A stretch of DNA of 64,000 nt. Source: Thermoproteota archaeon. GTDB lineage: Archaea; Thermoproteota; Methanomethylicia; Methanomethylicales; Methanomethylicaceae. Positions 6,468 through 43,007 of this stretch are shown here, in pieces (position 1 is the first letter of the stretch; every line of letters begins with the position of its first letter). Location of the stretch: the NCBI GenBank assembly GCA_029887795.1, contig JARXPE010000001.1, positions 129,386 to 193,385 of the forward strand. The letters run 5' to 3'. The notes under the pieces were generated by a model. It was given only the letters and a program-made list of their open reading frames with translations. It made no database searches and had not been told where the DNA came from. A program made the translations under genes and the position numbers.

Positions 6468-6503
6468 TAAGTTCTAATACGCCATTAAAAACCCTGCGGA
6501 CGT

Positions 6504-7823: not shown

Positions 7824-7824
7824 T

Positions 7825-8808
<984 letters not shown>

Positions 8809-11019: not shown

Positions 11020-11078
11020 ATGATTACAACACCACTCAAATAAATAACGCTTTTAAAACACTTAAGAGTTATGAGACC

Positions 11079-19641: not shown

Positions 19642-20409
19642 TTAGGTTTTTGATGCCAACCGTGAGATCAGAACCGCGGCGATCCCTGCCCCCACCCCGT
19701 TATCGATATTCACGACAACAAGACCGGGTGTGCATGATTGGAGCATCGTTATTAGTGCGCCCTCGCCCTTCCCACCATAGCCATACCCAACCGAAGACGG
19801 TACGCCGATAACAATCCCCGAGAACAGGCTACTAAATATCGAGGGAAGTGCTCCCTCCATCCCCGCAACAACTATTGCCACCGCAACTTTATCTTCCATG
19901 CATTTTTTGGCTACAGGGAAGATCCTGTGGAGACCAGCTATTCCGACATCGTAAAAGGCAAGAGTTCTAAATCCCATCTCATTGATTACCGCAAGAGCCT
20001 CCTCGGCAACAGGAAGGTCTGCGCTTCCGGCGGTTATAATGGCAATGGGAGGATCCTTCAGAGGTGGCGCTTCGCCTGTCCTTATGGAGACGATGCGCCC
20101 TTTCTCGTAGTAGATGGTTTTAGCCTTCTCCGAGAAGCTCTTTATTAGAAGGCGAGCTTGGGAAGGGGTTACCCTCGTGACTATGGCTAAGCCGTTCTCT
20201 TGAAGCAGTGATTTGACCGCGCTTAATAGTACTTCGTCAGATTTCCCCTCACCAAAGACCAATTCGGGAATCCCTTTCCTTAAATTTCTGGAGATGTCAA
20301 TGCAGGCACCCTCCATCTCCTTCAGAGCAAGTAGACGGATCTTTCTAGTAGCCTCTTCCACATCGATTTTTCCACTCTTTATTTGGTTGAGTATTTCGCT
20401 GATCTCCAA
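19642..20409 (-). CDS. larB: LarB (PurE-like NPN cofactor biosynthesis carboxylase/hydrolase).
   Basis: About 250 aa PurE/AIR-carboxylase-like C-terminal half with an N-terminal extension (IAIITAGSADLPVAEEA ... AVAIVVAGMEGALPS). Confidence 0.7.
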   Translation of the reverse strand: MEISEILNQIKSGKIDVEEATRKIRLLALKEMEGACIDISRNLRKGIPELVFGEGKSDEVLLSAVKSLLQENGLAIVTRVTPSQARLLIKSFSEKAKTIYYEKGRIVSIRTGEAPPLKDPPIAIITAGSADLPVAEEALAVINEMGFRTLAFYDVGIAGLHRIFPVAKKCMEDKVAVAIVVAGMEGALPSIFSSLFSGIVIGVPSSVGYGYGGKGEGALITMLQSCTPGLVVVNIDNGVGAGIAAVLISRLASKT

Positions 20410-20471
20410 AGCCTACACCAATCAATAAATGATATATCGGTAATCACAAAAATGAAGTGTGGTGCTAATAT

Positions 20472-26153: not shown

Positions 26154-27146
26154 TTGTTTGGAGGGTTTTCGTTGGCTAAAAATGGAAAGAGGATTTTAGT
26201 TGCCCTTGGCGGCAATGCAATAAAGCAAGCACATGAGAAAGGAACGGCTGAAGAGCAGTTTAAGAATGTGTACACCACAGCTAAACACCTAGTGAACATG
26301 ATAGAACACCTAGGAAAGGACGACAGGCTCATAATCACACACGGAAACGGGCCTCAGGCCGGAAACTTGGCGCTTCAACAAGACATTGCCAAGGATGTTG
26401 TGCCGCCACAGCCGCTTGATGTCGTGGGTGCCATGACGCAGGGGCAGATAGGCTACATGTTGCAGCAATGTCTGGAAAACATAATGATGGAGAAGGGTAT
26501 GAAGGTCCCAGTGGTCGCTATAGTCAATCAAGTGCTCGTTGACAAAAACGATCCTGAATTCTTTGGGGAGAACGCCTCAAAGCCAGTTGGAAACTTCTTA
26601 ACAGAAGAAGAAGCCATGAAGATGAAGGCGGAGAAGGGGTGGATTGTAAAGAAAGTGAAGCCCAATGCACCAAAGCCATGGAGGAGAGTAGTCCCATCGC
26701 CAGATCCCATTGCAAATGTTGAGGCAGATGTCATAAAGATACTCGTGGACTCTGGCGTCGTCGTCATAGCCTCGGGCGGAGGGGGAATCCCAGTCATAAA
26801 GGAAAATGGGAAGCTCGTAGGGGTCGAGGCTGTGATCGATAAGGATCTGGCTGGCGAGAGGCTTGCAGAAGTCGTGGAGGCGGACATATTCCTGATTCTG
26901 ACTGATGTCGAGAAGGCTAAACTCAACTTTGGAAAGCCAAATGAGAAGGAGATCGACAGGATGACGGTGTCGGAGGCTAAGAAGTACTTAGATGAGGGGC
27001 ATTTCCTCCCAGGCAGCATGGGACCGAAGGTTAAGGCGTGTATTAGGTTCCTGGAGTGGGGAGGCAAAGAAGCGATAATAACTTCGCTGGACAAGGCAGT
27101 AGACGCCCTAGAGGGAAGAACCGGCACTCACATAGTAAAGGATTAA
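26154..27146 (+). CDS. arcC: Carbamate kinase. Likely start at TTG 26172 giving MAKNGKRILVALGGNAI.
   Basis: Amino-acid kinase family with the carbamate kinase N-terminal signature. Confidence 0.85.
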   Translation: MFGGFSLAKNGKRILVALGGNAIKQAHEKGTAEEQFKNVYTTAKHLVNMIEHLGKDDRLIITHGNGPQAGNLALQQDIAKDVVPPQPLDVVGAMTQGQIGYMLQQCLENIMMEKGMKVPVVAIVNQVLVDKNDPEFFGENASKPVGNFLTEEEAMKMKAEKGWIVKKVKPNAPKPWRRVVPSPDPIANVEADVIKILVDSGVVVIASGGGGIPVIKENGKLVGVEAVIDKDLAGERLAEVVEADIFLILTDVEKAKLNFGKPNEKEIDRMTVSEAKKYLDEGHFLPGSMGPKVKACIRFLEWGGKEAIITSLDKAVDALEGRTGTHIVKD

Positions 27147-28605: not shown

Positions 28606-28917
28606 TTATGGGGTGGGTACCACAGACCTTCCCGAGAACCTTATTGCTTCGGCGGCATTGTCAGGTTTAATCTCGAAAGCAAGTGGTCGTTCGCACCACC
28701 AGAATTTTTGTGCCTTATCCGCCCTATAGTAGGGGCAGATCGGGCAGCACTTTGCCTCAAGCTTCAATAGATACCAGATCGGTGGTGCCTCATCGGACGG
28801 ATAGCTTTTCTGTGGCCATGGTTTCTCTTTTGACACGTATCCGGGGCACTTCGGGCTGACCCTAGGTTCTTGGTTCAGGATGTTCTTATATTCTGGGCAT
28901 AATATGCAGCATGGCAT
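28606..28917 (-). CDS. Cysteine-rich small protein (about 104 aa), last gene of the pyrimidine-catabolism operon. The track ORF is truncated to the internal Met to avoid overlapping the carbamoyltransferase.
   Basis: MPCCILCPEY ... KCPGY ... KCCPICPYY ... WWCE gives two CCxxCP motifs. Starts 15 nt after the upstream stop. Confidence 0.35.
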   Translation of the reverse strand: MPCCILCPEYKNILNQEPRVSPKCPGYVSKEKPWPQKSYPSDEAPPIWYLLKLEAKCCPICPYYRADKAQKFWWCERPLAFEIKPDNAAEAIRFSGRSVVPTP

Positions 28918-28931
28918 TGGATATAACCCCC

Positions 28932-29969
28932 TTATCTCCTTCCTCCCATTGTAAGGGCCATAATGCCCTTCTGTCCGTGTAGCCTGTTCTCTGCCTCGTC
29001 CACTGAGACGGACCATCTATTTGAGAATATCACCTCGGGTTCGACCTCAAGACCGACGTCGGCAGGCAGGCAGTGCATCCAGATACTGTTCTTGCGAGTC
29101 CTGTCCATCAGCTCGGGTGTCGTCTTCCAAGCGGCCAGGTTGTGAGTCTTCTTGTACTCCTCGTGTAGCTTTTCGTCGTAACCTCCTGCCTTTAAAAGTT
29201 CCCAGCTGCACCATCCCTTAGGATACACAACGAGCGCATCCTCAAAAGCCTCTTCCATATTGTGGACGATCTCGAACTTTGTGCCGTACTGGTCGGCGAG
29301 CTTTCTGGTATATTCCTCGACTGCTGGGTCTAGGTTGAACTTCTCAGGGTATGCTAGGGTGACGTCCATCTGAAGAAGTCTTGTGAAGAAGATTATGTTT
29401 GTCTGAGGGACTGCGACCGGCTTCCATGCGCCAGGGCTGTTGGCATAGCACATCACGAACTTCTTTCCTCTCAGGCTCCTGGCGTTGTATTTTTCGATCA
29501 CGGTCATCACATCTGCGACGCCTTGGCAGGGGTGCCACATATCGCATTCCATATTAATTACGGGGACTGTAGAGGCCTTGGCATACTCTCTCATTGTAAG
29601 GTTGCCTTCTCCGTAGTACTGACCCTTTACATATCTCCTTATGGCGATACCGTCACACATTCTGCTCATAATTGCGGCGGTCTCGTAAATGGTTTCACCA
29701 TGGGTTATCTGGAGCTTTCCTGGATCCAAGTCGTACGCCACGCCACCAAGCTGGGTTATTCCTGTAATGAAAGAGGACCTAGTCCTTGTGGAAGGGTTGA
29801 AGAACAGCGTAAATAGAGATTTGCCCTTGCAAAGATGGTCGTGTCTCTGACCCATTGCGTACTGCCTCTTCAGGTCGAATGAGACGTCCAATACTGTCCA
29901 AAGCTCTTCGTCACTCCATTCTATCTCGGGAGCTATCCAATGTTTTCCATGGAGTTCTGTTTTTACCAA
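28932..29969 (-). CDS. Carbamoyltransferase of the OTC/ATC superfamily with unknown specificity (not canonical OTC/ATC).
   Basis: STRTRSSF, HPCQ and HCLP motifs are present. The ornithine-binding DxxxSMG is replaced by YPKGWCSWE and the ATC RxQxER motif is absent. Confidence 0.8.
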   Translation of the reverse strand: MVKTELHGKHWIAPEIEWSDEELWTVLDVSFDLKRQYAMGQRHDHLCKGKSLFTLFFNPSTRTRSSFITGITQLGGVAYDLDPGKLQITHGETIYETAAIMSRMCDGIAIRRYVKGQYYGEGNLTMREYAKASTVPVINMECDMWHPCQGVADVMTVIEKYNARSLRGKKFVMCYANSPGAWKPVAVPQTNIIFFTRLLQMDVTLAYPEKFNLDPAVEEYTRKLADQYGTKFEIVHNMEEAFEDALVVYPKGWCSWELLKAGGYDEKLHEEYKKTHNLAAWKTTPELMDRTRKNSIWMHCLPADVGLEVEPEVIFSNRWSVSVDEAENRLHGQKGIMALTMGGRR

Positions 29970-30065
29970 ATATCTCCCTCCGAGTTTTTGCTGGAATTGG
30001 GTATTGAGTTTTGGTTTAATAATACTTTCGCGAGGATTTTAAGAAACTATCACAAAAAAAAGAGG

Positions 30066-31445
30066 TTAGGTTAAGGGCTGGTGCTTCCCTCGGGGTATGA
30101 ACCTTCCCATGCCCTTCTTGCCCACGAACTCTCTGTTGTAGACAACAGGTTTGCCCCTCACGAAGACGTGAACAGGCATACCCTTCACTGTGAACCCCTC
30201 GTATATCGAATAATCAATCTTTGAGTGGAGGTTCTTCTGGTTCAGCTCCATCTCATAATTTGGATCGAATACGACTATGTCCGCGTCGCTTCCCACGTTT
30301 AGAGTCCCCTTCTTGGGATAGAGACCAAAGAGTTTTGCAGGGTTGTATGAAACAACCTCAACAAGTTTGTTTAATGAGATCCTGTTTTTGGCAACTCCCT
30401 CGCTGTAAAGTATCGGTATCATCGTCTCAGTGCCAGGGACGCCGTTCGGCACCTTGGTGAAGTTGTCTTTTCCTAGATCCTTCTGGGCGTCCGTAAATGT
30501 GCAATGATCGGTGGCTACGGTGCTTAGTGTGCCGTTTGCAAGTCCCTCCCAAAGAGCCTCGTTGTCTGCCTTGCTCCTCAGGGGCGGCGACATTATATAC
30601 CTCCTGCCCTTCGGGGAGAGGTATTTCTCGTCTGTGAGAACAAGGTAGTGGGGACAAGTCTCCCCGTATAGGTTCGGGTAGAGCTTTTTCATCCTTGAGA
30701 GTTCGGCTACACCCTCTTTTGTGGACATGTGTACTATGTAGAGGTTCCCTCCAGCCGCTGCAGCTAGCGCAAGACCCCTATAAACCGCTTCGCCCTCCAC
30801 GAAGTTTGGTCTGCTCTTGGCGTGGTACTCCGCGGACAATTTTCCAGAGGAGACATGCCGCTCTATTAGGAGCTCCAGAACGGAATTGTTCTCTGCATGG
30901 AGCTGGACCAAGAACCCGAGTTTCTTGCTCTCCTCCAGCATCCGGTATATTCTGCCGTCGTCGCTCATCAGCCCCTCTTTTCTGTATGGCATGAAGAGCT
31001 TGAAACTTGAGACTCCAGCTTCCAAGACCTTTGGGATCTCATTTACGAGGTCTTCAGTTAGGTTTGTCACAGCCACATGTATTCCATAGTCAATGACCAC
31101 TTTGGGATCCGCCTTACCCCTCCATAGCATGATAGTTTCCAAGAAGGTCTTATCCTTCGGCTGTATCGCAAAGTCCAAGATTGTGGTGACCCCACCAAAT
31201 GCTGCCGCTATTGTGCCGTACTCAAAGTCGTCGACCGTAGTGGTCCCCATGAACGGCATCTCCATATGTGTGTGGGCATCTATGCCCCCGGGCATGACGT
31301 ATTTGCCTGAGGCGTCCACGACCTCTTCTGCTTTTTCAGTAATATTTGATGCGATACTCACAATCTTGCCGTCCTTGACGCCTATGTCCGCTTTGAATGT
31401 GTCCTTCGGTGTGACTATAGTTCCGTTCTTTATTAATAAGTCCAT
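30066..31445 (-). CDS. Dihydropyrimidinase / D-hydantoinase (cyclic amidohydrolase).
   Basis: GGIDAHTHMEMPFMGTTTVDDFEYGTIAAAFGGVTTILDF signature. Start adjusted to MDLLIKNGTIV. Confidence 0.8.
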   Translation of the reverse strand: MDLLIKNGTIVTPKDTFKADIGVKDGKIVSIASNITEKAEEVVDASGKYVMPGGIDAHTHMEMPFMGTTTVDDFEYGTIAAAFGGVTTILDFAIQPKDKTFLETIMLWRGKADPKVVIDYGIHVAVTNLTEDLVNEIPKVLEAGVSSFKLFMPYRKEGLMSDDGRIYRMLEESKKLGFLVQLHAENNSVLELLIERHVSSGKLSAEYHAKSRPNFVEGEAVYRGLALAAAAGGNLYIVHMSTKEGVAELSRMKKLYPNLYGETCPHYLVLTDEKYLSPKGRRYIMSPPLRSKADNEALWEGLANGTLSTVATDHCTFTDAQKDLGKDNFTKVPNGVPGTETMIPILYSEGVAKNRISLNKLVEVVSYNPAKLFGLYPKKGTLNVGSDADIVVFDPNYEMELNQKNLHSKIDYSIYEGFTVKGMPVHVFVRGKPVVYNREFVGKKGMGRFIPRGKHQPLT

Positions 31446-31494
31446 TATAAAGCCTCCAATATTAATATAGAAAAAGAAGCGTTTAAACACTCAC

Positions 31495-32718
31495 CTATTT
31501 TGTGACCTTCTTCCATGTTATGCATCCAGGCACAGGACAGAGATGTGTGCATAGGGAGCAGGCGTCGCACTTCTCCTCGTCGACTTCAGCGGACTTGCCT
31601 TGCTCGAACTTGATTGCTTGGTAACCGCCATCGCGACATGCCACATAGCAAAGACCGCACTTTATGCATAGGTCCTTGTTGATGCTGGCCACGACAGTGT
31701 AGTCCTTGTTGAGTTTAGACCAAGCCGTAAGTCTGGGGAGAGTCTTACCAATGATCTCTTGGACGGATGAGAATCCTTTATCTGCTAGGTAATTGGTGAG
31801 TCCGTCGACAAAGTCAGAGATTATTCTGTAGCCCCTCCACATAACTGCGGTACAGACTTGGACGCTGCCTGCGCCCACGAGGAGGTACTCCACAGCGTCC
31901 TTCCAAGTGGTTATCCCGCCTATTCCTGAGACTGGGATATTTGTTGCCTGTGCGATTTGGGCGACGCATCTGAGACCTATGGGCTTGACGCCAGGTCCTG
32001 AGAGACCTCCAAAAGTGCTCATCCCGTCGACTGTGGGTATCGGCTCAAAGGTGTCAATGTTTATACCTATCAGGCCGAGCACGGTATTTATCGCAGATAT
32101 GGCATCGGCACCAGCCTCCTCAGCAGCCTTGGCGGTAAACGCGATGTCTGTGACGTTCGGGGTTAGCTTCACCATCACTGGGACCGAGGAGCCGCGCTTT
32201 GCCGCCTTTGTCAGCTTCTGGATTAGTTCTGTTCTTTGACCGATGAATGCGCCCATGCCCCGCTCAGGCATACCATGTGGGCAGCCAAAGTTCAGCTCTA
32301 GCATGTCGACCCCGGCTTCGCTCACCACTCTAGCTAGTTCTTCCCAGTCCTCCTCTTTGCACTCAGCCATGATACTGCCTATGAGTGCCTTTTCGGGGAA
32401 CTTCCTCTTGATCTCTTTAATCTCGTTAACCCATGTGCCAACAGGCCTCTTTGAGACTTCCTCAATGTTTTCGAATAGTATCATCTGCTTTGTCTCAAAG
32501 CCCATCACGCCAAATCTGTTCTTTAGGTCGTAGACAGGCGTCTTGTCCGGCTTTATTGTCTTGGTGACAGCTCCAGCCCAACCAGCCTCGAAAGCCCTCA
32601 TGATCATCTCACCAGTGCATGTCGGGGGCGCCGATGAAAGCAGGTACGGGCTCTCCAGCTCAAGGTTGCAGAATTTTACGGATATATCCGGTTTTGAAAC
32701 CATTTTTCTCACTTCCAT
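31495..32718 (-). CDS. preA: Dihydropyrimidine dehydrogenase subunit PreA (DHODH-like TIM barrel plus two [4Fe-4S] ferredoxin motifs).
   Basis: DHODH-like core with C-terminal [14 protein letters not shown] and [15 protein letters not shown] lies 4 nt after the preT stop. Confidence 0.8.
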
Positions 32719-32722
32719 AACT

Positions 32723-34084
32723 CTATTTCTTAGGACTCTTCCCTCCGGAGAGGAACTTGTCAATAGCAGCCGCAGCTTTCTTGCCCTCTGCCACTGCCTC
32801 GACCACAGTCTCACCGCCGTTTACGGCATCGCCTCCCGCAAATATGCCTTTTATGGAGGTGGAGAAGTTCTCGTCCACGACGATAAGCCCTTTTTCGGTC
32901 TTGACACCATAGGACTTCAGCAACTCTTCGTCTGGTTTCTGCCCGATTGCGACTATCACGGAATTTACATCGAGGCGGAACTCCGAGCCCTTTATGGGCT
33001 TTACCCCCCTCCTCCCAGATGAGTCGGGCTCGGTTAATTCCATCTTCACGCACTCAATTGCTTCCACGCTTTTTTCACCCAATATCCTGACGGGGGCGGT
33101 GAGCAACAGGAATTCGACACCCTCCTCCCTCGCCTGATTTCTGCCGTAAGGCACCGCAGGCATTTCTGCGAAAGACCTCCTATAGACTATGTATACCCTT
33201 TCTGCCCCGAGCCTCACAGAGGCGCAGGCTGCATCTATGGCGGTGTCCCCACCGCCGATCACTGCAACCCTCTTACCTTTGAGGTCGGGCGCCTTACCCT
33301 CCCCCATCAACCATTTTGCGACGGATTGTAGAAATTCCTGTGCCGGATAAACGCCATTGAGATCCTCGCCCGGTATACCAAGTTTTTGAGACTTTGTGGC
33401 ACCGATGCCCACGAAGACTGCATCATACTCCTTCAGGAGGGATTTGAGGTCAGTGATTTTCTTGTTGGTGACAAAGTTAATGCCATACTCCTTTATGAGG
33501 TCTATCTCAGACTCTGGGACGGACCAAGGTGCCTTCCAGGGAAGGATGCCGTAAAGTAGCAGACCACCGGGTTTGGGGTTTGCGTCAAAGACAGTGACGC
33601 CGTATCCCATGCGCGCCAGCTCGTATGCGGCCGATAATCCAGCCGGACCTGCGCCCACCACCGCAACCTTTTTGTTTTTGGAACGCGACTTCGGGAACTT
33701 GACGAGTCCTTTAAGCTTCTCTTTCTCGTAGGCGAACCTCTGAAGCATTGAGATTGCCACGGGCTCCTCGTTTAGGTTCCTCCTGACACATTTCGACTCG
33801 CAGAGTCGCTCAACCGGACAGACATAACCACATTCACCACCTAAGATGTTGCTTTCTCGTATCACCTTGGCTGCACCGTAGAAGTTTCCAGTCTTTATTC
33901 TGTAAATGAATTCAGGAATGTTGATTCCAGCTGGGCAGGCTGAGATGCATGGGGCGTCAAAGCACATGAGGCACCTTGAGGCTTCGTAGACCGCAAGTCT
34001 GTCGTCGAGATTTGAGACGTATGGAGCGAAGCTAGAAACCCTCTCATGCGGAGGAATGGTTTTAGTATGGACTCTACCTGACAT
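32723..34084 (-). CDS. preT: Dihydropyrimidine dehydrogenase subunit PreT (GltD-like, NAD(P)H/FAD binding, N-terminal Fe-S).
   Basis: CLMCFDAPCISACP plus two Rossmann motifs, VAVVGAGPAGLSAA and VAVIGGGDTAIDAA. Confidence 0.8.
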   Translation of the reverse strand: MSGRVHTKTIPPHERVSSFAPYVSNLDDRLAVYEASRCLMCFDAPCISACPAGINIPEFIYRIKTGNFYGAAKVIRESNILGGECGYVCPVERLCESKCVRRNLNEEPVAISMLQRFAYEKEKLKGLVKFPKSRSKNKKVAVVGAGPAGLSAAYELARMGYGVTVFDANPKPGGLLLYGILPWKAPWSVPESEIDLIKEYGINFVTNKKITDLKSLLKEYDAVFVGIGATKSQKLGIPGEDLNGVYPAQEFLQSVAKWLMGEGKAPDLKGKRVAVIGGGDTAIDAACASVRLGAERVYIVYRRSFAEMPAVPYGRNQAREEGVEFLLLTAPVRILGEKSVEAIECVKMELTEPDSSGRRGVKPIKGSEFRLDVNSVIVAIGQKPDEELLKSYGVKTEKGLIVVDENFSTSIKGIFAGGDAVNGGETVVEAVAEGKKAAAAIDKFLSGGKSPKK

Positions 34085-34150
34085 AGAATTCGCTCCTGAG
34101 AGGATTAATGGTTAATAAGGGGTTTTAATTAAGGCTTTCGTGATAGAATT

Positions 34151-34837
34151 ATGGATCTCTCAGAAGGAAGGGTTGTAAAAGGTATCGTATTCGATCTGGA
34201 CGGTACACTAGTTGACTCCGTCGACTCTATTTGGAGGTCCTCTGATTACGTGCTAAGGAGTAATGGATACCGCGGGTTAGACCGTGAGGACGTCGTGAAG
34301 GTGATGGGTAAGACCATCTTTGACTTATTTCTGAGCGTGGAGCCCAGATTGAGTCCACAGGAGCAGCATAAACTGTTCGAGGAATATAGGAGAACTTATA
34401 TGAACTTCATAGAGCACACCAAGCTGATCCCTAAGGTAAGGGAGATCCTTCTGTTTCTAAGATCGAGAAGATTGAAGATGGCGGTCGTCACCACGAAGAG
34501 TAGGGAAAACGCCGAGAAGATACTATCCTTTTTCGGAATAAGAAGCTTCTTTGATTTGGTTATAGGATTTGAGGACGTTAGAGAACACAAGCCCTCGGCA
34601 GAGCCCATAATGAGGGCAGCTGAAGGGCTGGGTCTTCAAGCCTCGGAGTTGGTTGTGGTCGGGGACACCGAGGTCGACATCAGGGCGGGGAGAGAGGCGG
34701 GAGCATTAACGGTTGCCGTTAAGACGGGCGTAACTCCTTTAGAGAAGATTATAGCTGAGAGTCCAAACTTTTTGATTGAGAGTGTGTCGGACCTGCCTGA
34801 GGTTTTAATGCGAAACGGTATAGCTACGGGTGAGTGA
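34151..34837 (+). CDS. HAD-superfamily hydrolase (phosphatase, PGP/PpaX-like).
   Basis: VKGIVFDLDGTLVDS motif I. VVVGDTEVD motif. Confidence 0.7.
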   Translation: MDLSEGRVVKGIVFDLDGTLVDSVDSIWRSSDYVLRSNGYRGLDREDVVKVMGKTIFDLFLSVEPRLSPQEQHKLFEEYRRTYMNFIEHTKLIPKVREILLFLRSRRLKMAVVTTKSRENAEKILSFFGIRSFFDLVIGFEDVREHKPSAEPIMRAAEGLGLQASELVVVGDTEVDIRAGREAGALTVAVKTGVTPLEKIIAESPNFLIESVSDLPEVLMRNGIATGE

Positions 34838-36119
34838 TGTTCTTTAGTATCTCATCGAACCGCCCTGCAGCAATGTCAATGTGTTCGCGGGTCAGGACCA
34901 ACGGAGGCTCTATTCTTATGACGTTGCCCTCTAACCCTCCGAGACCCACAAGGATCTTTTTCTTCCACGCTTCTTGCAGGAAGCTAACAGCTTCCTCTCT
35001 TGCGGGAACCTTTGTAGACCTGTCTTTCACCAGCTCGATCCCAAGAAAGAGCCCTATACCCCTGACATCTCCGATAATCTCGTATTTCTCCTGTAAGGAC
35101 TCCAGCCTGCGCTTAAAATATGAGCCGTTCTCCTTAACCTTTTCCATGAGACCGCCCGTTAGCTCCTCCAGGACAGCCTCCGCAGCAGCACATGCCAAGG
35201 CGTTTCCACCCAAGGTGGAGTAGTGCTCCCCAGGTCGAAGGGCTGAGTCGAGCTCCTCCTTGTAGATGGTTACACCGAGAGGGAGACCGTTGGCGATGGC
35301 TTTCGAGGTTGTCATCACATCCGGTATGATGCCATAGTGCTCAATACCCCAAAGTTTGCCTGTCCGACCGTTTCCAGATTGTACCTCATCCGCAATGAAG
35401 AGTATGGAATACTTGTCTAAAACCTGCTTGACTTCCTTGAAGTAATCAGAAGGAGGTATGATCATGCCACCGTTGGCCAGCATGGGTTCTGCCAATAGTG
35501 CTGAAATCGAGTCCCCCCCAACCTCGCATTTTATCACGTCCTCCATATACTTTACGCAGGCGAATCCACATTCGGGGCAGCTTCTATGCCCGAGCGGGCA
35601 CCTATAGCAATAGGGGTCGGGTGCAAACACCACTGGCGCGAATGGACCTAGTCCAACCTTCCAGCTTGACTGACCCAGAGCACTCATGGCGTAAAAAGTC
35701 CTGCCGTGAAACGACCTGTGTAGGGCGATTATGTAGGGTCTCTTCTTGACACGCTTCACGAGGGAGATCGCCGTCTCGTTGGCCTCTGAGCCGCTGTTCG
35801 TGAAGAAACTCTTGGTTAGGGCACCACCAGGAGAAAGTTCAGAGAGCCTTTTTGCAAGTCTTGCGGTGTAATCCAAGTAGTAGAGTGAGGATGTATGGAA
35901 GAGCTTGCGCATCTGCGCCTCAACTGCCCTGATTACACTCTGGTTCGACCAGCCCACATTGACTATGGATACGCCAGCGTATAGGTCGATGTAGGCATCC
36001 CCATCAATGGAGTAGACGATGTCATCAACAGCCCTATCTGGAACGAATGGATAGTAGTGCCTGTACATTCGCGAGAGGTAACGTTCGGAGAGGGCTATGA
36101 TATCTTTAGATGGGTTCAT
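34824..36119 (-). CDS. Class III PLP-dependent aminotransferase (omega-aminotransferase, candidate beta-alanine aminotransferase).
   Basis: Class III fold with PLP lysine region MTTSKAIANGLPLG. Carries an inserted Cys cluster CYRCPLGHRSCPECGFAC. Confidence 0.75.
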   Translation of the reverse strand: MNPSKDIIALSERYLSRMYRHYYPFVPDRAVDDIVYSIDGDAYIDLYAGVSIVNVGWSNQSVIRAVEAQMRKLFHTSSLYYLDYTARLAKRLSELSPGGALTKSFFTNSGSEANETAISLVKRVKKRPYIIALHRSFHGRTFYAMSALGQSSWKVGLGPFAPVVFAPDPYCYRCPLGHRSCPECGFACVKYMEDVIKCEVGGDSISALLAEPMLANGGMIIPPSDYFKEVKQVLDKYSILFIADEVQSGNGRTGKLWGIEHYGIIPDVMTTSKAIANGLPLGVTIYKEELDSALRPGEHYSTLGGNALACAAAEAVLEELTGGLMEKVKENGSYFKRRLESLQEKYEIIGDVRGIGLFLGIELVKDRSTKVPAREEAVSFLQEAWKKKILVGLGGLEGNVIRIEPPLVLTREHIDIAAGRFDEILKNITHP

Positions 36120-36179: not shown

Positions 36180-36524
36180 TCACTTGGGAGGCGCGTTGAC
36201 TGCGATGAGCCACAGCGGTGTCTTTCCGATGTTCTTTATGGAATGGGGAACGTTTGGCGGAAAAACGAGGGCGTTGCCTGCCTTCACCTTGTACTCCTCG
36301 TTACCTATTGTGACCAGCGCCCTACCCTTCAGTATGTAGTAAGCTTGTTCGAATGGGTGGGTATGGGGATCTGCTCTACCACCAACCTCAAACTCAGACC
36401 TGAACATAGAGAGGTTCTTGCACCCAACATTTGCCTCCTCAAGTAAGACTCTAGTTATGCACCCATAGTGCAGCGGAGGGACAAAGGTGCGTGCTTCTTT
36501 TGGATCTATAACACGTTTCGTCAT
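36180..36524 (-). CDS. Cupin-domain protein.
   Basis: HTHPFEQAYYILKG ... GNALVFPPNVPH cupin motifs. Confidence 0.6.
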   Translation of the reverse strand: MTKRVIDPKEARTFVPPLHYGCITRVLLEEANVGCKNLSMFRSEFEVGGRADPHTHPFEQAYYILKGRALVTIGNEEYKVKAGNALVFPPNVPHSIKNIGKTPLWLIAVNAPPK

Positions 36525-36678: not shown

Positions 36679-37446
36679 TCAGAGTGGAATGAGAGCCCTT
36701 ATGTTGGAGTAGGTGATCATCTGGATGTCCCTTCCACCAACCCCAGCGCGGTCCAGGTAGTGGGCAACCCGTGGGAGGGAGAGCGGATCTGAAGGTTTGT
36801 TGCCAATATCGCTGTTGAGTACGATGCCCTCCGGACCGTTCTTTAGTATAACTTCATGGACGTCTTTTGGGGTGAGTTTGCCAGGTTGGACTGTCAGACC
36901 CACGTTGGCACCTATGGACCTCACCTTCGCCACTAGGTCGGGAGTTAAATGATCAATAATTACCCTAGCGGGATCTACATTCTCAGACTCGATGATTCCG
37001 AGGAGTTTGTCCACGATCTTTTCTTTGTTGTTCCTCGGGGTGTGCATGATCATTGGTACGGGGTACTCGTTTGCGATCCGAATCTGCTGGGTCAATACGT
37101 ACTCCTCTTCTTGGCTGCCAGTCTCTAGACCGACCTCACCGAGTGCAGAGGCTTTCTCGTTATCAAAGAGTGCGAGGATGTGGTCTAGAACTGCCTTGAG
37201 ATCCTCCTCGGGGATGGACCTCGGGTGAATGCCCACGGCAACCCTCGAGCTTATACCGTATGAGCTGAGTCTCATTGGCTCCTCTTCCATGACCCAACGG
37301 AACAGGTCACGCATGGTCGAGAAGCCCAATGGTTGAACAGGGAAAAAGGAGCAGATGATGACGCCTTCTACACCAGCGACGGACATAAGCTCAAGGTCTT
37401 CCGGACCCCTGAGGTAAGTATGGGTATGAGAGTCGATGAACCTCAA
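36679..37446 (-). CDS. TatD-family metal-dependent hydrolase / DNase.
   Basis: MRFIDSHTHTY N-terminus. TIM-barrel hydrolase pattern. Confidence 0.7.
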   Translation of the reverse strand: MRFIDSHTHTYLRGPEDLELMSVAGVEGVIICSFFPVQPLGFSTMRDLFRWVMEEEPMRLSSYGISSRVAVGIHPRSIPEEDLKAVLDHILALFDNEKASALGEVGLETGSQEEEYVLTQQIRIANEYPVPMIMHTPRNNKEKIVDKLLGIIESENVDPARVIIDHLTPDLVAKVRSIGANVGLTVQPGKLTPKDVHEVILKNGPEGIVLNSDIGNKPSDPLSLPRVAHYLDRAGVGGRDIQMITYSNIRALIPL

Positions 37447-40537: not shown

Positions 40538-41251
40538 GTGACCATCGAAGATTGTACAGAAAATCTAATTAAGTTTTCGTATGAATATTGGAAACATTGC
40601 GAGGGACGATGGGTGGGCAATGTTAAACTTGAGGCGCTCAAAGAGGCTCTACTTGAGCAGAATCAAAGAAAGGCGAAAGATCTCACAGAGGAATTTTTGC
40701 GGGAAGGGGTGGAGCCAAAGGAGATAATTGATGTGATATCTGAGGGCCTAAGATTAATTGGAGATCTGTTTGAGAAGGGCGAGTTCTTTCTGCCGGAGGT
40801 TATGAGGGCAGCGAATGCAGCCAAGGCATCTTTGGGCGTCGTGTTACCAATGATGGTTAAGGAGAATGTTGGTGATGGGCGAGGAGTGATTGCGATAGGC
40901 TCGCTGGGACCACATGACATCGGAAAGACCATAGTATCTTCGATGTTAATCGCAGATGGTTTCAAGGTGCTGGACATGGGCATCAACGTGACGCCGAGCA
41001 TCGTGGAGGATTTCCTAAGAAATAATAAAGTGGATATACTCGCCCTCTCAATTCTGCTAACATCCGACATAGATAAAGGTGCCAACATTATCGAGAGGGC
41101 AAGGAAGGTCTTAAGCGGTCTCAAGGTGATGGTGGGTGGAGCGGCTATGAGCCAAGATATTGCAAGAAAAATAAGGGCTGACGCGTACGGTAGGGACGCA
41201 AGCGAGGCTGTGAAGATAGCAAGAGAGCTTATTGGGGGTAAAGAGAAATGA
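40538..41251 (+). CDS. Corrinoid (B12-binding) methyltransferase-associated protein (MtaC/MttC/MetH-B12-domain-like). The real start is possibly GTG near 40604.
   Basis: B12-binding DxHxxG motif (GSLGPHDIGKTIV) and an N-terminal helical cap (EFLREGVEPKEIIDVISEGLRLIGDLFEKGEFFLPEVM). Confidence 0.75.
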   Translation: MTIEDCTENLIKFSYEYWKHCEGRWVGNVKLEALKEALLEQNQRKAKDLTEEFLREGVEPKEIIDVISEGLRLIGDLFEKGEFFLPEVMRAANAAKASLGVVLPMMVKENVGDGRGVIAIGSLGPHDIGKTIVSSMLIADGFKVLDMGINVTPSIVEDFLRNNKVDILALSILLTSDIDKGANIIERARKVLSGLKVMVGGAAMSQDIARKIRADAYGRDASEAVKIARELIGGKEK

Positions 41252-42138
41252 TGACAATGAGAACGACCGTTATCGGGAGTTATCCGGTGGTTGGTGAGGG
41301 TCTGGAGGCAATAAAGACTGCTGTGAACGACCAGCTGGAGGCAGGCATTGAAATAATAAGCGATGGGCAGACGAGAAAGGACATGGTGTGCTATTTCGCA
41401 GACCACATACCCGGGTTTAAGGTTGAAGACGAGAAAGCTAAGATTGTAGGAAAGGTGAGACCCCCAGAAGAAACTCCCGTAGTGGACGACTTGATATTTG
41501 CGAGAAAGTTGGCTGGTGAAAGGGCCGAGGTGAAGGCCATAATTACCGGTCCTGTCACAATGGTTTTCTTTTCCGAACTTGCCCCAGAGGCACCCTATGC
41601 CGGGTTCCGGGACGAGAGGCTTTACGAGGATGTAAGCGAAGCCCTAGCTGTGGAGGTGGAGATTATTCAGAAGGCGGGCTTTACGAAGATACAGATAGAC
41701 GAACCCAGTTTTTCAATCGGGGCGCCCATGAATATAGGGAGAAAGGCGCTCGAATCGATCGTGTCCGACTTGAAGGGAACAAAAGCGCTTCATGTTTGTG
41801 GAAACCTTAGGAGGGTCTTCGGAGAGATCGTGAAGATAGAGGGGTTGGACGTCCTAAGCTTTTCATTCAAGGATAACGTCAGCAACTTTGACAGCGTTGA
41901 GAAGAAGCTTCTGAAGGATTACTCAAAGAAGCTCGGCGTGGGTTGTGTAAGTACGATGAGCCCAGAGGTGGAGGACGTGGACTCTATTAAGAAGGTACTG
42001 ACAAGGGCGGTTGGGTTATATGGATCGGAAAATATCGAGTGGGTTCATCCCGATTGTGGGCTGAGATCCTTCAAAAGGGATGAGGCGTTCATGAAACTCA
42101 AGAACATGGTCACTGCGGTGAGGGAGCTGAGGGGATAA
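41248..42138 (+). CDS. Core-MetE-like protein (cobalamin-independent methionine synthase C-terminal-domain homolog, short archaeal form). Putative methylcorrinoid:homocysteine methyltransferase.
   Basis: 296 aa. MRTTVIGSYP start typical of the Meth_synt_2 domain. ATGA overlap with the corrinoid protein gene. Confidence 0.6.
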   Translation: MMTMRTTVIGSYPVVGEGLEAIKTAVNDQLEAGIEIISDGQTRKDMVCYFADHIPGFKVEDEKAKIVGKVRPPEETPVVDDLIFARKLAGERAEVKAIITGPVTMVFFSELAPEAPYAGFRDERLYEDVSEALAVEVEIIQKAGFTKIQIDEPSFSIGAPMNIGRKALESIVSDLKGTKALHVCGNLRRVFGEIVKIEGLDVLSFSFKDNVSNFDSVEKKLLKDYSKKLGVGCVSTMSPEVEDVDSIKKVLTRAVGLYGSENIEWVHPDCGLRSFKRDEAFMKLKNMVTAVRELRG

Positions 42139-43007
42139 TGGAAGTCCGCTTGGGTAACATAAAATTTGGCGATGTGCCGGTCATGATAGGCAGCCTGTTC
42201 TATAAATCGGACAGGAAGGTAATCGATCATAAAAGAGGCGATGTAAACAGACCAGCACTCCTTAGGGAGCTGAAGAGTGTCTCAAAACTCAAGGAAAGGA
42301 CGGGACTGTTTCATGCCCTAGACATAATAGCGGAAACTCCGGAGGCGATGGAAAGGTACATAGCCGCAGTTGCCGAGTTAACCGATGATCCCTTGCTCAT
42401 AGGGGGCCTCAATGAAGATACCAGAATCGCAGGTTACAGGAAGGCGTCCGAGTTGGGTCTGGTGGACAGGTGCGGTATAAATTCGGTGTCGCTTGCGACC
42501 AGCGAAAGGGAGCTAGAATGCATCAAAGATAGCGGGATTAAATTCGCAATAGTCCAGACATTGGACCCAGCTGCGGTTTACCCAGAAGAGAAGCTTCAAG
42601 TTTTGAAAGGAGGGCTCCTTGAAAGGTGCAGGAACGCCGGCATCACTGATGTTGCTATAGATGTCGGCATAATAGACTTCACGAGTGTCTGGCTGGCGGC
42701 AGAGTCGATTAAGGCGGTGAAGAATGAGCTTGGACTGCCTGCTGGATGTGCGCCCTCCAACGTTGCTTATCAGCCCCTGTTGAAGAAGAAGGTGACCAAG
42801 AGGGTCGCGAGATCGATGAATGTGGCACTCAACACGATGATACAAATCGCGGGGGCAGATTTCATACTGTATGGACCACTTAGGGCAGCAGGGTATATAT
42901 TCGAGGCAGCAGCCACAGTTGAGGGAATAAAGGCTTATGGAGAGAAGTTGAAGGGGAAGGCTTTTGAGAAGAGCCACCCACTTTATAAGTTCCTAGCTAA
43001 ACTCTGA
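42138..43007 (+). CDS. MtrH-like pterin-binding methyltransferase (methyl-H4MPT/THF:corrinoid methyltransferase).
   Basis: Resembles MtrH (FGDVPVMIGSLFYK ... LIGGLNEDTRIAGYRKASELGLVDRCGINSVSL). Confidence 0.7.
   Translation: MEVRLGNIKFGDVPVMIGSLFYKSDRKVIDHKRGDVNRPALLRELKSVSKLKERTGLFHALDIIAETPEAMERYIAAVAELTDDPLLIGGLNEDTRIAGYRKASELGLVDRCGINSVSLATSERELECIKDSGIKFAIVQTLDPAAVYPEEKLQVLKGGLLERCRNAGITDVAIDVGIIDFTSVWLAAESIKAVKNELGLPAGCAPSNVAYQPLLKKKVTKRVARSMNVALNTMIQIAGADFILYGPLRAAGYIFEAAATVEGIKAYGEKLKGKAFEKSHPLYKFLAKL

What the first reader, a model, noticed from the sequence alone, without database searches (positions are those of the whole stretch)
28606..36119. Reductive pyrimidine catabolism operon ending in an atypical transcarbamylase instead of beta-ureidopropionase, next to carbamate kinase: a possible ATP-yielding variant
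Five co-directional minus-strand genes encode PreT, PreA, dihydropyrimidinase, a transcarbamylase-family enzyme of non-canonical specificity, and a Cys-rich small ORF. No nitrilase- or M20-type beta-ureidopropionase is encoded in the window. A carbamate kinase lies 1.8 kb away and a class-III omega-aminotransferase lies just upstream of the operon.

By analogy with OTC plus CK in the ADI pathway and oxamate transcarbamylase (YgeW) plus CK in purine fermentation, this predicts phosphorolysis of N-carbamoyl-beta-alanine to beta-alanine and carbamoyl phosphate. Substrate-level ATP formation by the carbamate kinase would follow, and the aminotransferase would convert beta-alanine to malonate semialdehyde. 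I am not aware of this wiring being established for pyrimidines, but I cannot check the literature from here.
Basis: partly seen in the sequence, partly recalled or inferred. Interest (0 to 1): 0.8.

Follow-up and report, generated by a model that had tools for sequence, protein, structure and literature searches.

The report
Pyrimidine breakdown cluster that may yield ATP
An archaeal (Methanomethylicales) gene cluster for breaking down uracil and thymine lacks the usual last hydrolase and carries instead a YgeW-like carbamoyltransferase with a carbamate kinase nearby, so it probably makes one ATP per pyrimidine ring, a reaction proposed in 2015 but never shown.

Summary
On the minus strand lie PreT, PreA, a dihydropyrimidinase, a 345-aa transcarbamylase (TCase) and a conserved 103-aa protein with eight cysteines. 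A carbamate kinase lies 1.8 kb from the TCase, and a class-III aminotransferase lies upstream. No ORF of at least 140 aa in the 64-kb window has a nitrilase-type or M20 domain.

The TCase is not an OTCase or ATCase. It falls below every NCBIfam cut-off and sits in a 100%-bootstrap clade with E. coli YgeW. That corrects one analogy: YgeW is not oxamate TCase. It phosphorolyses 2,3-diureidopropionate in reductive uric-acid degradation (2025), and the bacterial homologues (39–50% identity) sit in such clusters.

The archaeal clade has a different context. The uricolytic partners XdhD, SsnA, YgeY and YgeX are absent. PreA is a true dihydropyrimidine dehydrogenase subunit, and the hydrolase resembles Bacillus dihydropyrimidinases. 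Two proposed substrate-pocket residues are changed.

The cluster recurs in at least 15 Methanomethylicales contigs. Rearranged forms are DHP–TCase–small ORF–CK and, in another archaeon, CK–PreT–PreA–TCase.

The best reading is phosphorolysis of N-carbamoyl-β-alanine coupled to ATP formation (confidence about 0.55). I found no publication establishing it. There is no biochemistry, and whole genomes could not be checked. I class it as a new variant of a known kind.

The parts
32723..34084 (-). PreT-like NAD(P)H/FAD/Fe-S subunit of dihydropyrimidine dehydrogenase (453 aa)
   Evidence: Pfam Fer4_20 and Pyr_redox_2. It is 35% identical to E. coli PreT (226 bits, against 177 bits to YgfK). It is conserved directly upstream of PreA in relatives.
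31495..32703 (-). PreA, the FMN/4Fe-4S catalytic subunit of dihydropyrimidine dehydrogenase (402 aa)
   Evidence: NCBIfam PreA equivalog 538 bits against a cut-off of 335. 290 bits to the pyrimidine-binding domain of pig DPD. 42% identical to E. coli PreA. It carries the loop [14 protein letters not shown] with the catalytic-type Cys, which the uricolytic UacX lacks. The start codon was set by comparison with relatives.
30066..31445 (-). Dihydropyrimidinase / D-hydantoinase (459 aa)
   Evidence: TIGR02033 540 bits against 393. 476 bits to B. stearothermophilus D-hydantoinase 1K1D and 434 bits to Brevibacillus agri dihydropyrimidinase 3SFW. Only about 39-40% identical to the uricolytic HyuA proteins.
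29970..30065 (-). Intergenic region with a T8 tract followed by an AAAGTATTATTAAA (TATA-like) box and a GGAGGGAG ribosome-binding site
   Evidence: Read directly from the sequence. A 100-210 nt gap at this position is present in all relatives. This suggests that the TCase and the small ORF have their own promoter; that is an inference.
28932..29969 (-). YgeW-like (knotted-type) carbamoyltransferase, 345 aa; predicted N-carbamoyl-beta-alanine:phosphate carbamoyltransferase
   Evidence: Pfam OTCace_N and OTCace. Below every NCBIfam TCase cut-off. Closest solved sequence is YgeW 3Q98. Sits in the 100%-bootstrap YgeW-like clade and in a 100% clade of its own. Carbamoyl-phosphate residues are intact; the second-substrate pocket is altered by Q160E and S200G plus an insertion in the 120s loop. 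AF2 pLDDT is 92.5 with a TCase fold.
28606..28917 (-). Orphan 103-aa protein with 8 invariant Cys (PCCxLCPxY ... CPGY ... CCxxCPY[YF] ... WWC[EQ]RP[LF]AFE), translationally coupled to the TCase
   Evidence: It starts 14 nt after the TCase stop. It follows the TCase in every contig of the Methanomethylicales TCase clade that extends past the TCase, down to 44% identity. No Pfam or NCBIfam hit. Only 3 clusters among 1.84 billion representatives. The AF2 model is uninformative.
26172..27146 (+). Carbamate kinase (324 aa, TTG start)
   Evidence: TIGR00746 410 bits against 358. 44% identical to E. coli YqeA. Retained within a few kb in most relatives, and directly adjacent to the small ORF in L007 and L109 and to PreT in L123.
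34824..36119 (-). Class-III omega-aminotransferase (431 aa), candidate beta-alanine aminotransferase
   Evidence: Pfam Aminotran_3 320 bits. Below all NCBIfam cut-offs. Closest solved structure is the Pyrococcus '4-aminobutyrate aminotransferase' 7VNO. Conserved at this position in relatives. Specificity is not shown.
34151..34837 (+). HAD-IA family phosphatase, divergent from PreT; role unknown
   Evidence: Pfam HAD_2. Below NCBIfam cut-offs, with a weak hit to the YjjG pyrimidine nucleotidase family. Conserved in this position and orientation in relatives.
36180..36524 (-). Small cupin (114 aa), a conserved cluster member of unknown role
   Evidence: Pfam Cupin_2. It precedes the aminotransferase in most relatives, but directly precedes the dihydropyrimidinase in L007, where PreT, PreA and the aminotransferase are missing. 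It has only generic metal-cupin matches in the PDB.

Best explanation
This is a variant of the reductive pyrimidine catabolic pathway in a Methanomethylicales archaeon. In it, the last step is a phosphorolysis instead of a hydrolysis.

Proposed steps:
1. PreT/PreA reduce uracil or thymine to the dihydropyrimidine.
2. The dihydropyrimidinase opens the ring to N-carbamoyl-beta-alanine (or N-carbamoyl-beta-aminoisobutyrate).
3. The YgeW-like carbamoyltransferase transfers the carbamoyl group to phosphate. This releases beta-alanine and carbamoyl phosphate.
4. The neighbouring carbamate kinase converts carbamoyl phosphate plus ADP into ATP, CO2 and NH3.
5. The class-III aminotransferase probably pulls the unfavourable equilibrium by removing beta-alanine as malonate semialdehyde.

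What is shown: the identities of the enzymes by family, an intact carbamoyl-phosphate site, an altered second-substrate pocket, and the conserved and recombined gene linkage.

What is inferred: the substrate of the TCase, the catabolic direction, the role of the aminotransferase, and any role of the 8-Cys protein, the cupin and the HAD phosphatase.
For: 1. Enzyme identities.
- PreA, the dihydropyrimidinase and the carbamate kinase all pass curated equivalog cut-offs.
- PreA has the DPD-type Cys loop, and the uricolytic UacX scores only 202 bits on the PreA model.
- The hydrolase scores 434-476 bits against Bacillus-type D-hydantoinase and dihydropyrimidinase structures, including the B. agri dihydropyrimidinase.

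2. The TCase is not OTCase, ATCase, PTCase, AOTCase or a YgeW equivalog by score.
- It lacks the ornithine motifs: K251 stands in place of D231, and A186 in place of N167.
- It falls in the kinase-linked YgeW-like clade with bootstrap 100.

3. All ten mapped carbamoyl-phosphate residues are conserved. Two proposed second-substrate residues of YgeW are replaced in 14 of 14 clade members but kept in most uricolytic relatives: Q160 becomes E, and S200 becomes G (28/29 and 24/29 respectively). The 120s loop also carries an insertion.

4. None of the uricolytic partners (XdhD, SsnA, YgeY M20, YgeX PALP) occurs in the window or in about 20 related archaeal loci. Nearly all bacterial homologues have them.

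5. Linkage.
- The same cluster occurs in at least 15 contigs.
- The rearranged core DHP-TCase-small ORF-CK occurs in L007 and L109.
- An independent CK-PreT-PreA-TCase arrangement, with a TCase only 47% identical, occurs in another archaeal contig, L123.
- A TCase-hydantoinase-like-AFOR-PreA-like arrangement occurs in Hadarchaeota.

6. No beta-ureidopropionase domain is found in the window.

7. The window also encodes AMP phosphorylase, type III RuBisCO, ribose-1,5-bisphosphate isomerase and a nucleoside phosphorylase. This is a route that releases free bases.

8. There is precedent for the chemistry. YgeW plus YqeA phosphorolyse a ureido acid. OTC/CK and PTC/CK do the same (established knowledge).
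Against: - There is no biochemical evidence for any member of this clade.
- The experimentally characterised relative, E. coli YgeW, cleaves an alpha-ureido group. The substrate proposed here carries a beta-ureido group.
- The closest bacterial homologues work in purine, not pyrimidine, catabolism.
- Synteny within Methanomethylicales also preserves unrelated genes (inositol-phosphate synthase, KaiC, TrmB). Conservation there is therefore partly simple inheritance.
- L123 lacks a dihydropyrimidinase within 10 kb, and L007 lacks PreT/PreA within 10 kb.
- Whole genomes could not be searched for a beta-ureidopropionase or for a separate OTCase.
- TCase equilibria strongly favour carbamoylation.
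- Archaeal carbamate kinases can act anabolically (abstract of PMC6022934).
Confidence: 0.55

Rival explanations
1. The TCase and kinase are catabolic, but the substrate is a different ureido compound. One candidate is an N-carbamoyl-alpha-amino acid made by the D-hydantoinase from a 5-substituted hydantoin. Another is a purine-derived diureido acid, as for YgeW. On this reading PreT/PreA act on something other than uracil or thymine, or serve a separate purpose.
For: - The characterised relative YgeW cleaves the alpha-ureido group of 2,3-diureidopropionate.
- All bacterial homologues examined are in uricolytic-type clusters.
- TIGR02033 does not separate HyuA from dihydropyrimidinase.
- The hydrolase's closest structures are broad-range D-hydantoinases.
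- In L007 and L109 the module is hydantoinase-TCase-CK with no PreT/PreA nearby.
Against: - XdhD, SsnA, YgeY and YgeX are absent from the window and from about 20 related loci.
- PreA is a bona fide dihydropyrimidine dehydrogenase subunit, unlike UacX and YgfK.
- Only one ring-opening hydrolase is present, which fits a monocyclic substrate.
- The pocket residues differ from the uricolytic type.
- L123 links PreT/PreA directly to a TCase and a kinase.
Confidence: 0.2
2. The pathway is the ordinary hydrolytic one, with a beta-ureidopropionase encoded elsewhere. On this reading the TCase is only a neighbour by inheritance. It would serve another carbamoyl-phosphate-dependent process, such as citrulline or arginine metabolism, together with the kinase.
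For: - Databases annotate the protein as ornithine carbamoyltransferase.
- P. furiosus OTCase is the second-closest solved sequence and the top Foldseek hit.
- Unrelated genes are also syntenic across the clade.
- Whole genomes were not searched.
Against: - The ornithine-binding DxxxSMG motif and the Asn167 position are not conserved.
- OTC models score 207-209 bits against cut-offs of 281-306.
- The tree places it outside the OTCases with bootstrap 100.
- No arginine-biosynthesis or ADI genes lie nearby.
- The TCase stays with the dihydropyrimidinase and the kinase when the rest of the cluster is rearranged, and with PreT/PreA in L123.
Confidence: 0.1
3. The module runs in the anabolic direction. 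The kinase supplies carbamoyl phosphate, and the TCase carbamoylates beta-alanine or another amine. This could feed a reverse route to dihydrouracil and uracil, or make another ureido product.
For: - TCase equilibria favour carbamoylation.
- Carbamate-kinase-like enzymes act as carbamoyl-phosphate synthetases in some archaea (abstract of PMC6022934).
- The physiological role of E. coli PreT/PreA is unknown.
Against: - All characterised YgeW-like and kinase-adjacent TCases are catabolic.
- The cluster sits in a window with nucleotide-degrading enzymes.
- An aminotransferase next to the cluster fits removal of beta-alanine.
- There is no precedent for pyrimidine synthesis through dihydrouracil.
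Confidence: 0.07

Closest known systems
YgeW carbamoyltransferase with YqeA carbamate kinase in the reductive uric-acid degradation pathway (E. coli; Life Metab 2025, PMC12507026)
   Same: - Same TCase subfamily: 38.5% identity, a 100%-bootstrap clade, a proline-rich loop and an extended 120s loop.
- Same logic: a D-hydantoinase-family hydrolase makes a ureido acid, the TCase phosphorolyses it, and a neighbouring carbamate kinase makes ATP.
- A PreT/PreA-like reductase performs the dearomatisation upstream.
   Different: - The partners XdhD, YgfM, SsnA, YgeY and YgeX are absent here.
- The reductase is a true PreT/PreA, not YgfK or UacX.
- There is one ring-opening hydrolase, not two.
- The protein is 50 residues shorter, lacking YgeW's terminal helices and the long 240s insertion.
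- It scores far below the YgeW equivalog cut-offs (199 against 453).
- Pocket residues Q160 and S200 are changed.
- The predicted substrate carries a beta-ureido group rather than an alpha-ureido group.
Canonical reductive pyrimidine degradation (PydA or PreT/PreA, PydB, PydC, with the PydD/PydE extension)
   Same: The first two enzymes are the same, and a class-III aminotransferase sits next to the cluster in the position PydD would take.
   Different: PydC (beta-ureidopropionase, nitrilase-type or M20) is missing from the window. A TCase and a carbamate kinase stand in its place, so the ureido group would yield ATP rather than being hydrolysed.
Arginine deiminase and agmatine deiminase pathways (catabolic OTCase or PTCase with carbamate kinase)
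   Same: Phosphorolysis of a ureido compound by a TCase, coupled to substrate-level ATP formation by carbamate kinase.
   Different: The TCase subfamily differs (unknotted OTC/PTC, with DxxxSMG or Y233 motifs). The substrates and the upstream enzymes also differ.
Ureidoglycine carbamoyltransferase of Rubrobacter xylanophilus (Barba et al. 2013, PMC4016543)
   Same: A catabolic TCase found by gene context beside a cyclic amidohydrolase and a carbamate kinase. It replaces a hydrolase (allantoate amidohydrolase) in nucleobase catabolism.
   Different: That enzyme is ATCase-like and acts in purine (allantoate) catabolism in a bacterium.
ATCase PyrB-PyrI (catalytic chain followed by a Zn-binding, Cys-containing regulatory chain)
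   Same: A small Cys-containing protein is encoded immediately downstream of a TCase catalytic gene and is translationally coupled to it. This is a resemblance only.
   Different: There is no detectable sequence similarity to PyrI. The small protein has eight Cys in a duplicated CCxxC pattern and no allosteric domain. Its interaction with the TCase is untested.

Membership tests
Transcarbamylase superfamily | The SxRT, HPxQ and HxLP motifs, and the conserved Arg of strand beta4 | tested here: met
   S60-T-R-T63, H146-P-C-Q149, H299-C-L-P302 and R111 are present. Pfam OTCace_N scores 125 bits and OTCace 94 bits, both above cut-off. The AF2 model has pLDDT 92.5 and TM 0.84-0.86 to solved TCases.
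Ornithine carbamoyltransferase | Ornithine-binding residues N167, D231, S235 and M236 (the DxxxSMG motif), and the curated model cut-offs | tested here: not met
   The aligned residues are A186 and K251-G-W-C-S-W. NF001986 scores 209 against 306, and TIGR00658 scores 207 against 281. The protein lies outside the OTCases in the tree with bootstrap 100.
Aspartate carbamoyltransferase | R167, R229 and Q231 (the RxQxER motif), the HPLP motif, and the model cut-offs | tested here: not met
   TIGR00670 scores 92 against 237 and NF002032 scores 93 against 263. Identity to E. coli PyrB is 29% over only 157 residues. The motif is HCLP, not HPLP.
YgeW (knotted carbamoyltransferase) equivalog | The curated NCBIfam cut-offs | tested here: not met
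   NF005538 scores 199 against 453, and TIGR03316 scores 191 against 500.
YgeW-like / knotted TCase group (broad sense) | A proline-rich loop and an extended 120s loop; a short 80s loop with Gln; Lys at the K270 position; a kinase gene nearby; clade membership | tested here: met
   - The loop SPGAWKPVAVPQ aligns with YgeW SPSYGKPLSVPQ.
- The 120s loop is extended.
- Q87 and K251 are conserved.
- The clade has bootstrap 100.
- YgeW 3Q98 is the best PDB sequence hit.
- The trefoil knot itself could not be inspected with these tools.
YgeW-type specificity (2,3-diureidopropionate) | The proposed second-substrate residues Q160, S200, D124, K203 and K270, and uricolytic partner genes | tested here: not met
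   Q160 becomes E141 and S200 becomes G180 in 14 of 14 clade members. The D124 region has Y113 plus an insertion. K203 and K270 are kept. No XdhD, SsnA, YgeY or YgeX lies nearby.
N-acetyl- / N-succinyl-ornithine carbamoyltransferase | The SMRT or SLRT motif, an extended 80s loop with Trp, and the model cut-off | tested here: not met
   The motif is STRT and the 80s loop is short, with Q87. NF003384 scores 201.5 against 288. Glu at the E144 position is shared.
Reductive pyrimidine degradation (Pyd) pathway | Dihydropyrimidine dehydrogenase (PydA or PreT/PreA) | tested here: met
   PreA scores 538 bits against 335. It has the DPD Cys loop. A PreT-like partner lies directly upstream.
Reductive pyrimidine degradation (Pyd) pathway | Dihydropyrimidinase (PydB) | tested here: met
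   TIGR02033 scores 540 against 393. It scores 434 bits to B. agri dihydropyrimidinase.
Reductive pyrimidine degradation (Pyd) pathway | Beta-ureidopropionase (PydC) | tested here: not met
   None is found in the 64-kb window or in the 10-kb flanks of related loci. Whole genomes could not be tested with these tools.
Carbamate kinase | The TIGR00746 equivalog cut-off | tested here: met
   410 bits against 358.
Beta-alanine carbamoyltransferase (hypothetical activity) | Phosphate-dependent cleavage of N-carbamoyl-beta-alanine | not testable with these tools
   This needs an enzyme assay. No characterised member exists in the literature searched.

The most novel reading that the evidence does not exclude
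Methanomethylicales, and at least two further archaeal lineages (a Hadarchaeota type and the L123 lineage), gain ATP by substrate-level phosphorylation from pyrimidine bases.

They would do so through an enzyme activity never demonstrated: N-carbamoyl-beta-alanine:phosphate carbamoyltransferase ('beta-alanine transcarbamylase'). This would complete a full nucleotide fermentation together with the AMP phosphorylase/RuBisCO pathway encoded in the same window.

The lineage-restricted 8-Cys protein would be a dedicated metal-binding partner of this TCase.
Probability: 0.4. Interest if true: 0.8.

Novelty: new variant of a known kind. Interest (0 to 1): 0.7.

Why it matters
- It would add a new reaction to nucleobase catabolism. 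This would be a new EC entry in class 2.1.3 and would fill a gap that transcarbamylase specialists named explicitly in 2015.
- It would show that pyrimidine rings, like arginine, agmatine and purines, can pay for ATP in anaerobes.
- It would change how the energy budget of an uncultured or barely cultured methanogen-related order is read. Nucleic-acid scavenging would become an energy source.
- It would correct a widespread misannotation. These proteins are labelled ornithine or N-acetylornithine carbamoyltransferase in the databases.
- It would give a thermostable route from dihydropyrimidines or hydantoins to beta-amino acids that conserves energy.
- It also exposes an orphan Cys-rich protein tied to a TCase, and several further uncharacterised TCase types in purine clusters.

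Tried and rejected
- **Genome-contig scan with the clade alignment.** It still supplied 26 bacterial YgeW-like loci and many OTCase outgroups.
- **Structure of the small ORF.** The model had pLDDT 39.6 and was unusable, so no fold search was run on it.
- **Remote homologues of the small ORF.** I ran phmmer and a profile against all fetched loci, a word-indexed search of 5.8 billion proteins, and a full HMM scan of 1.84 billion representatives. Only three clusters turned up, all of the same kind.
- **A promoter motif shared by PreT and the TCase.** There was one match only, so I dropped it.
- **Deducing which TCase type cleaves beta-ureido groups from replacement of YgeY.** The second TCases in Chloroflexota-type loci are a separate, very distant type, about 27% identical to all the others. 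The inference therefore does not transfer to the window's clade, and I kept it only as a side observation.
- **Foldseek of the TCase model.** It confirms the fold but does not separate OTCase, AOTCase and YgeW as nearest neighbour.
- **TIGR02033.** It cannot distinguish uricolytic HyuA from dihydropyrimidinase, so I used PDB similarity instead.
- **Readings considered and rejected.** OTCase or AOTCase for arginine synthesis fails on motifs and cut-offs.
- **Literature.** Eight full-text searches found no report of the activity. Subscription-only papers are not covered.

Full report
**What is there**

The minus strand of the window carries, in order:
- a PreT-like flavoprotein (32723-34084);
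- PreA (31495-32703);
- a dihydropyrimidinase (30066-31445);
- a 345-aa carbamoyltransferase, the TCase (28932-29969);
- a 103-aa cysteine-rich ORF (28606-28917).

PreA, the dihydropyrimidinase and the carbamate kinase on the plus strand (26172-27146) all exceed the curated NCBIfam equivalog cut-offs: 538 against 335, 540 against 393 and 410 against 358. Start codons were set by comparison with relatives.

The TCase has both Pfam TCase domains but is below the cut-off of all 16 NCBIfam TCase models. It scores 209 against 306 for OTC, 201 against 288 for AOTC, 199 against 453 for YgeW, 179 against 500 for PTC and 93 against 263 for ATC.

A class-III aminotransferase (34824-36119) lies upstream. 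A HAD phosphatase gene on the opposite strand separates it from PreT. An inositol-3-phosphate synthase gene lies between the small ORF and the kinase.

A T8 tract and a TATA-like box lie between the dihydropyrimidinase and the TCase. They suggest that the TCase and the small ORF form a unit of their own.

The host is a Methanomethylicales (Verstraetearchaeota) archaeon. The nearest database protein, at 98% identity, is labelled 'ornithine carbamoyltransferase [Candidatus Methanomethylicales archaeon]'. The window also carries corrinoid, methyltransferase and MtrH genes.

**No beta-ureidopropionase in the window**

Pfam scans of 62 of the 65 ORFs of at least 140 aa gave no CN_hydrolase and no M20 peptidase; the other three are overlapping shadow ORFs. 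tblastn with an M20 YgeY, a PALP YgeX, SsnA and XdhD from bacterial loci gave no hit at E < 1e-5.

**What the TCase is**

Its best solved-structure sequence matches are YgeW from E. coli and E. faecalis (3Q98 and 2YFK, 166 bits). P. furiosus OTCase (159 bits) and AOTCase (135 bits) follow. Identity is 38.5% to E. coli YgeW and 27% to ArgI.

A neighbour-joining tree with 100 bootstraps places it in a clade that holds YgeW and excludes the OTCases, with support of 100. Within that clade the Methanomethylicales sequences form their own branch, also at 100.

I mapped the active-site table of Shi et al. 2015 onto the alignment.
- All ten mapped carbamoyl-phosphate residues are kept: S60, T61, R62, T63, Q87, R111, H146, Q149, C300 and L301.
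- K270, K203, D334 and E344 of YgeW are kept.
- YgeW Q160 is Glu in 14 of 14 clade members, against Gln in 28 of 29 uricolytic relatives.
- YgeW S200 is Gly in 14 of 14, against Ser in 24 of 29.
- The 120s loop carries a short insertion (VK/VKG) next to the D124 position.
- The ornithine-binding positions of OTCase are occupied by A186 and K251.

An AlphaFold model (pLDDT 92.5) has the TCase fold, with TM 0.84-0.86 to OTCase, AOTCase and YgeW. It does not discriminate among them.

**What its relatives do**

Bacterial homologues at 39-50% identity sit next to an M20 peptidase, carbamate kinase, PALP enzymes, XdhD, SsnA, a YgfK- or UacX-type reductase and a hydantoinase. These homologues come from Clostridia, Chloroflexota, Elusimicrobiota, Atribacterota and others.

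That is the reductive uric-acid degradation cluster described in 2025. There, YgeW with phosphate converts 2,3-diureidopropionate to albizziin, and YqeA is the kinase. Oxamate TCase is AllFGH (paper title).

**Why the archaeal cluster is nevertheless a pyrimidine cluster**

1. None of the purine-specific partners occurs in the window or in about 20 related archaeal loci.
2. PreA passes the PreA equivalog model, while the uricolytic UacX scores 202 bits on it. PreA carries the loop [14 protein letters not shown] with the catalytic-type Cys. UacX lacks this loop. PreA also matches the pyrimidine domain of pig DPD at 290 bits.
3. The hydrolase scores 476 and 434 bits against the B. stearothermophilus D-hydantoinase and the Brevibacillus agri dihydropyrimidinase. 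It is only 39-40% identical to uricolytic HyuA.
4. There is one ring-opening hydrolase, as expected for a monocyclic substrate.

**Linkage**

The gene order is TatD-like, cupin, aminotransferase, (HAD), PreT, PreA, dihydropyrimidinase, TCase, small ORF, (INO1), (CK). It recurs in at least 15 independent contigs, with the proteins 67-99% identical. Unrelated genes are also syntenic, so this alone is weak evidence. Rearranged versions are more telling.
- In L007 and L109 (TCase 75% identical) the cluster is cupin, dihydropyrimidinase, TCase, small ORF and an adjacent convergent kinase. PreT, PreA and the aminotransferase are absent.
- In L123, a different archaeal contig, it is CK, PreT (54% identical), PreA (56% identical, with the DPD loop) and a TCase only 47% identical and of another subtype.
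- In Hadarchaeota (L008) it is TCase, a hydantoinase-like hydrolase, an aldehyde:ferredoxin oxidoreductase and a PreA-like protein.

Two relatives carry an NCS1 nucleobase/hydantoin-type permease 5 kb downstream.

**Context**

The same window encodes:
- AMP phosphorylase (708 bits against a cut-off of 535);
- a type III RuBisCO;
- ribose-1,5-bisphosphate isomerase (426 against 314);
- a nucleoside phosphorylase.

By established knowledge of the archaeal AMP pathway, this route degrades nucleotides and releases free bases.

**Mechanism proposed**

1. Uracil or thymine is reduced by PreT/PreA.
2. The ring is opened to N-carbamoyl-beta-alanine or N-carbamoyl-beta-aminoisobutyrate.
3. The TCase phosphorolyses the ureido group, giving beta-alanine and carbamoyl phosphate.
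4. The kinase makes ATP.
5. The aminotransferase probably removes beta-alanine.

The enzyme families, the intact carbamoyl-phosphate site, the altered pocket and the linkage are shown. The substrate, the direction, and the roles of the aminotransferase, cupin, HAD protein and 8-Cys protein are inferred. I put this reading at about 0.55.

**Rivals**

- The TCase takes another ureido substrate, such as an N-carbamoyl-alpha-amino acid or a purine-derived acid (0.2). This is favoured by YgeW's alpha-ureido specificity and by the purine context of the bacterial relatives.
- The pathway is hydrolytic, with the hydrolase encoded elsewhere, and the TCase is unrelated to it (0.1).
- The module runs anabolically (0.07).

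**The small ORF**

It is a real gene.
- It follows the TCase by 14 nt.
- It is present in every contig of the Methanomethylicales TCase clade that extends past the TCase, down to 44% identity.
- It keeps eight invariant cysteines in a duplicated CCxxC pattern.
- It has no family assignment, no usable structure model and only three clusters among 1.84 billion representatives.

A role as a metal-binding partner of the TCase, loosely like PyrI, is speculation.

**Novelty**

Eight full-text searches found no report of a beta-alanine or N-carbamoyl-beta-alanine carbamoyltransferase. The only mention is the 2015 review, which says that such a catabolic enzyme 'remain[s] to be proven'. The library does not cover subscription-only papers.

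I class the finding as a new variant of a known kind. The pathway is known and the catabolic TCase/kinase module is known, but this combination and the predicted activity are undescribed.

Noticed in passing
window 4908-8805 (-), 8889-9773 (-), 13232-13933 (+): The archaeal AMP (pentose-bisphosphate) pathway is present. It comprises AMP phosphorylase (TIGR03327, 708 bits against 535), a type III RuBisCO-like protein (430 against 497, just under the cut-off) and ribose-1,5-bisphosphate isomerase (426 against 314). PRPP synthetase and a PNP/uridine-phosphorylase family protein lie nearby. Together they make a nucleotide-degrading island about 20 kb from the pyrimidine cluster.
   Followed up: partly
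L123:6063-11065 (archaeal metagenome contig Ga0315280_10000018): CK (73% identical to the window's), PreT (54%), PreA (56%) and a TCase of another subtype (47% identical, SLRT motif, extended 80s loop). No dihydropyrimidinase, M20, PALP or XdhD lies within 10 kb. This is an independent PreT/PreA-TCase-kinase linkage.
   Followed up: partly
L008:5358-13044 (Hadarchaeota; TCase cluster named Ca. Hadarchaeum): The order is TCase (53% identical), a hydantoinase-like amidohydrolase (below the TIGR02033 cut-off), an aldehyde:ferredoxin oxidoreductase, a PreA-like protein without PreT (272 bits, below cut-off) and an ADP-forming acyl-CoA synthetase-like protein. This may be a ferredoxin-dependent variant that goes on to a CoA ester.
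   Followed up: no
L011, L122, L124, L125; and L020, L022, L025, L027, L029, L031, L033, L035, L036: Many uricolytic-type clusters carry two different TCases with a kinase and PALP enzymes, and mostly no M20 YgeY. Of the nine loci L020-L036 listed here, eight lack YgeY. By contrast, 16 loci pair a type-1 TCase with YgeY; L035 is in both counts. The extra TCases are at least two further uncharacterised types, one with SVRT and one only about 27% identical to everything else. Both ureido groups of diureidopropionate may be phosphorolysed there, which would give two ATP.
   Followed up: partly
window 36180-36524 (-) and 36679-37446 (-): A 114-aa cupin and a TatD-like hydrolase are conserved upstream of the cluster in all relatives. 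In L007 the cupin moves with the dihydropyrimidinase-TCase core, so it probably belongs to the pathway. No function can be assigned.
   Followed up: partly
L092 and L105: 16207-17559 (-): In two relatives an NCS1-family (cytosine/purine/uracil/hydantoin) permease lies about 5 kb downstream of the TCase. No homologue was looked for in the window beyond the Pfam scans, which found none.
   Followed up: partly
window 40538-43007 (+): A corrinoid protein, a Meth_synt_2 (MtaA-like) methyltransferase and MtrH lie in a row. This is the methyl-transfer gene set expected in a methylotrophic Methanomethylicales genome.
   Followed up: no
window 19642-21650: An AIR-carboxylase-like protein (LarB-type) and a nickel-insertion protein (LarC-type) are adjacent. 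This suggests synthesis of the nickel-pincer cofactor.
   Followed up: no
window 10968-13222 (+): Two tandem paralogues with DUF1246 and DUF1297 domains (PurP-type FAICAR synthetase family) lie next to the nucleoside phosphorylase.
   Followed up: no
window 59623-63927 (-): A PEP synthase / pyruvate-phosphate-dikinase-type enzyme and a carboxyltransferase lie here. The carboxyltransferase scores 692 bits against 999 on the methylmalonyl-CoA decarboxylase alpha subfamily model and aligns from position 101 of that model. It could bear on the fate of malonate semialdehyde or malonyl-CoA, but I did not examine it.
   Followed up: no
databases: All members of the archaeal clade and most bacterial YgeW-like relatives are annotated as ornithine or N-acetylornithine carbamoyltransferase. 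The motif and cut-off tests contradict those labels.
   Followed up: yes
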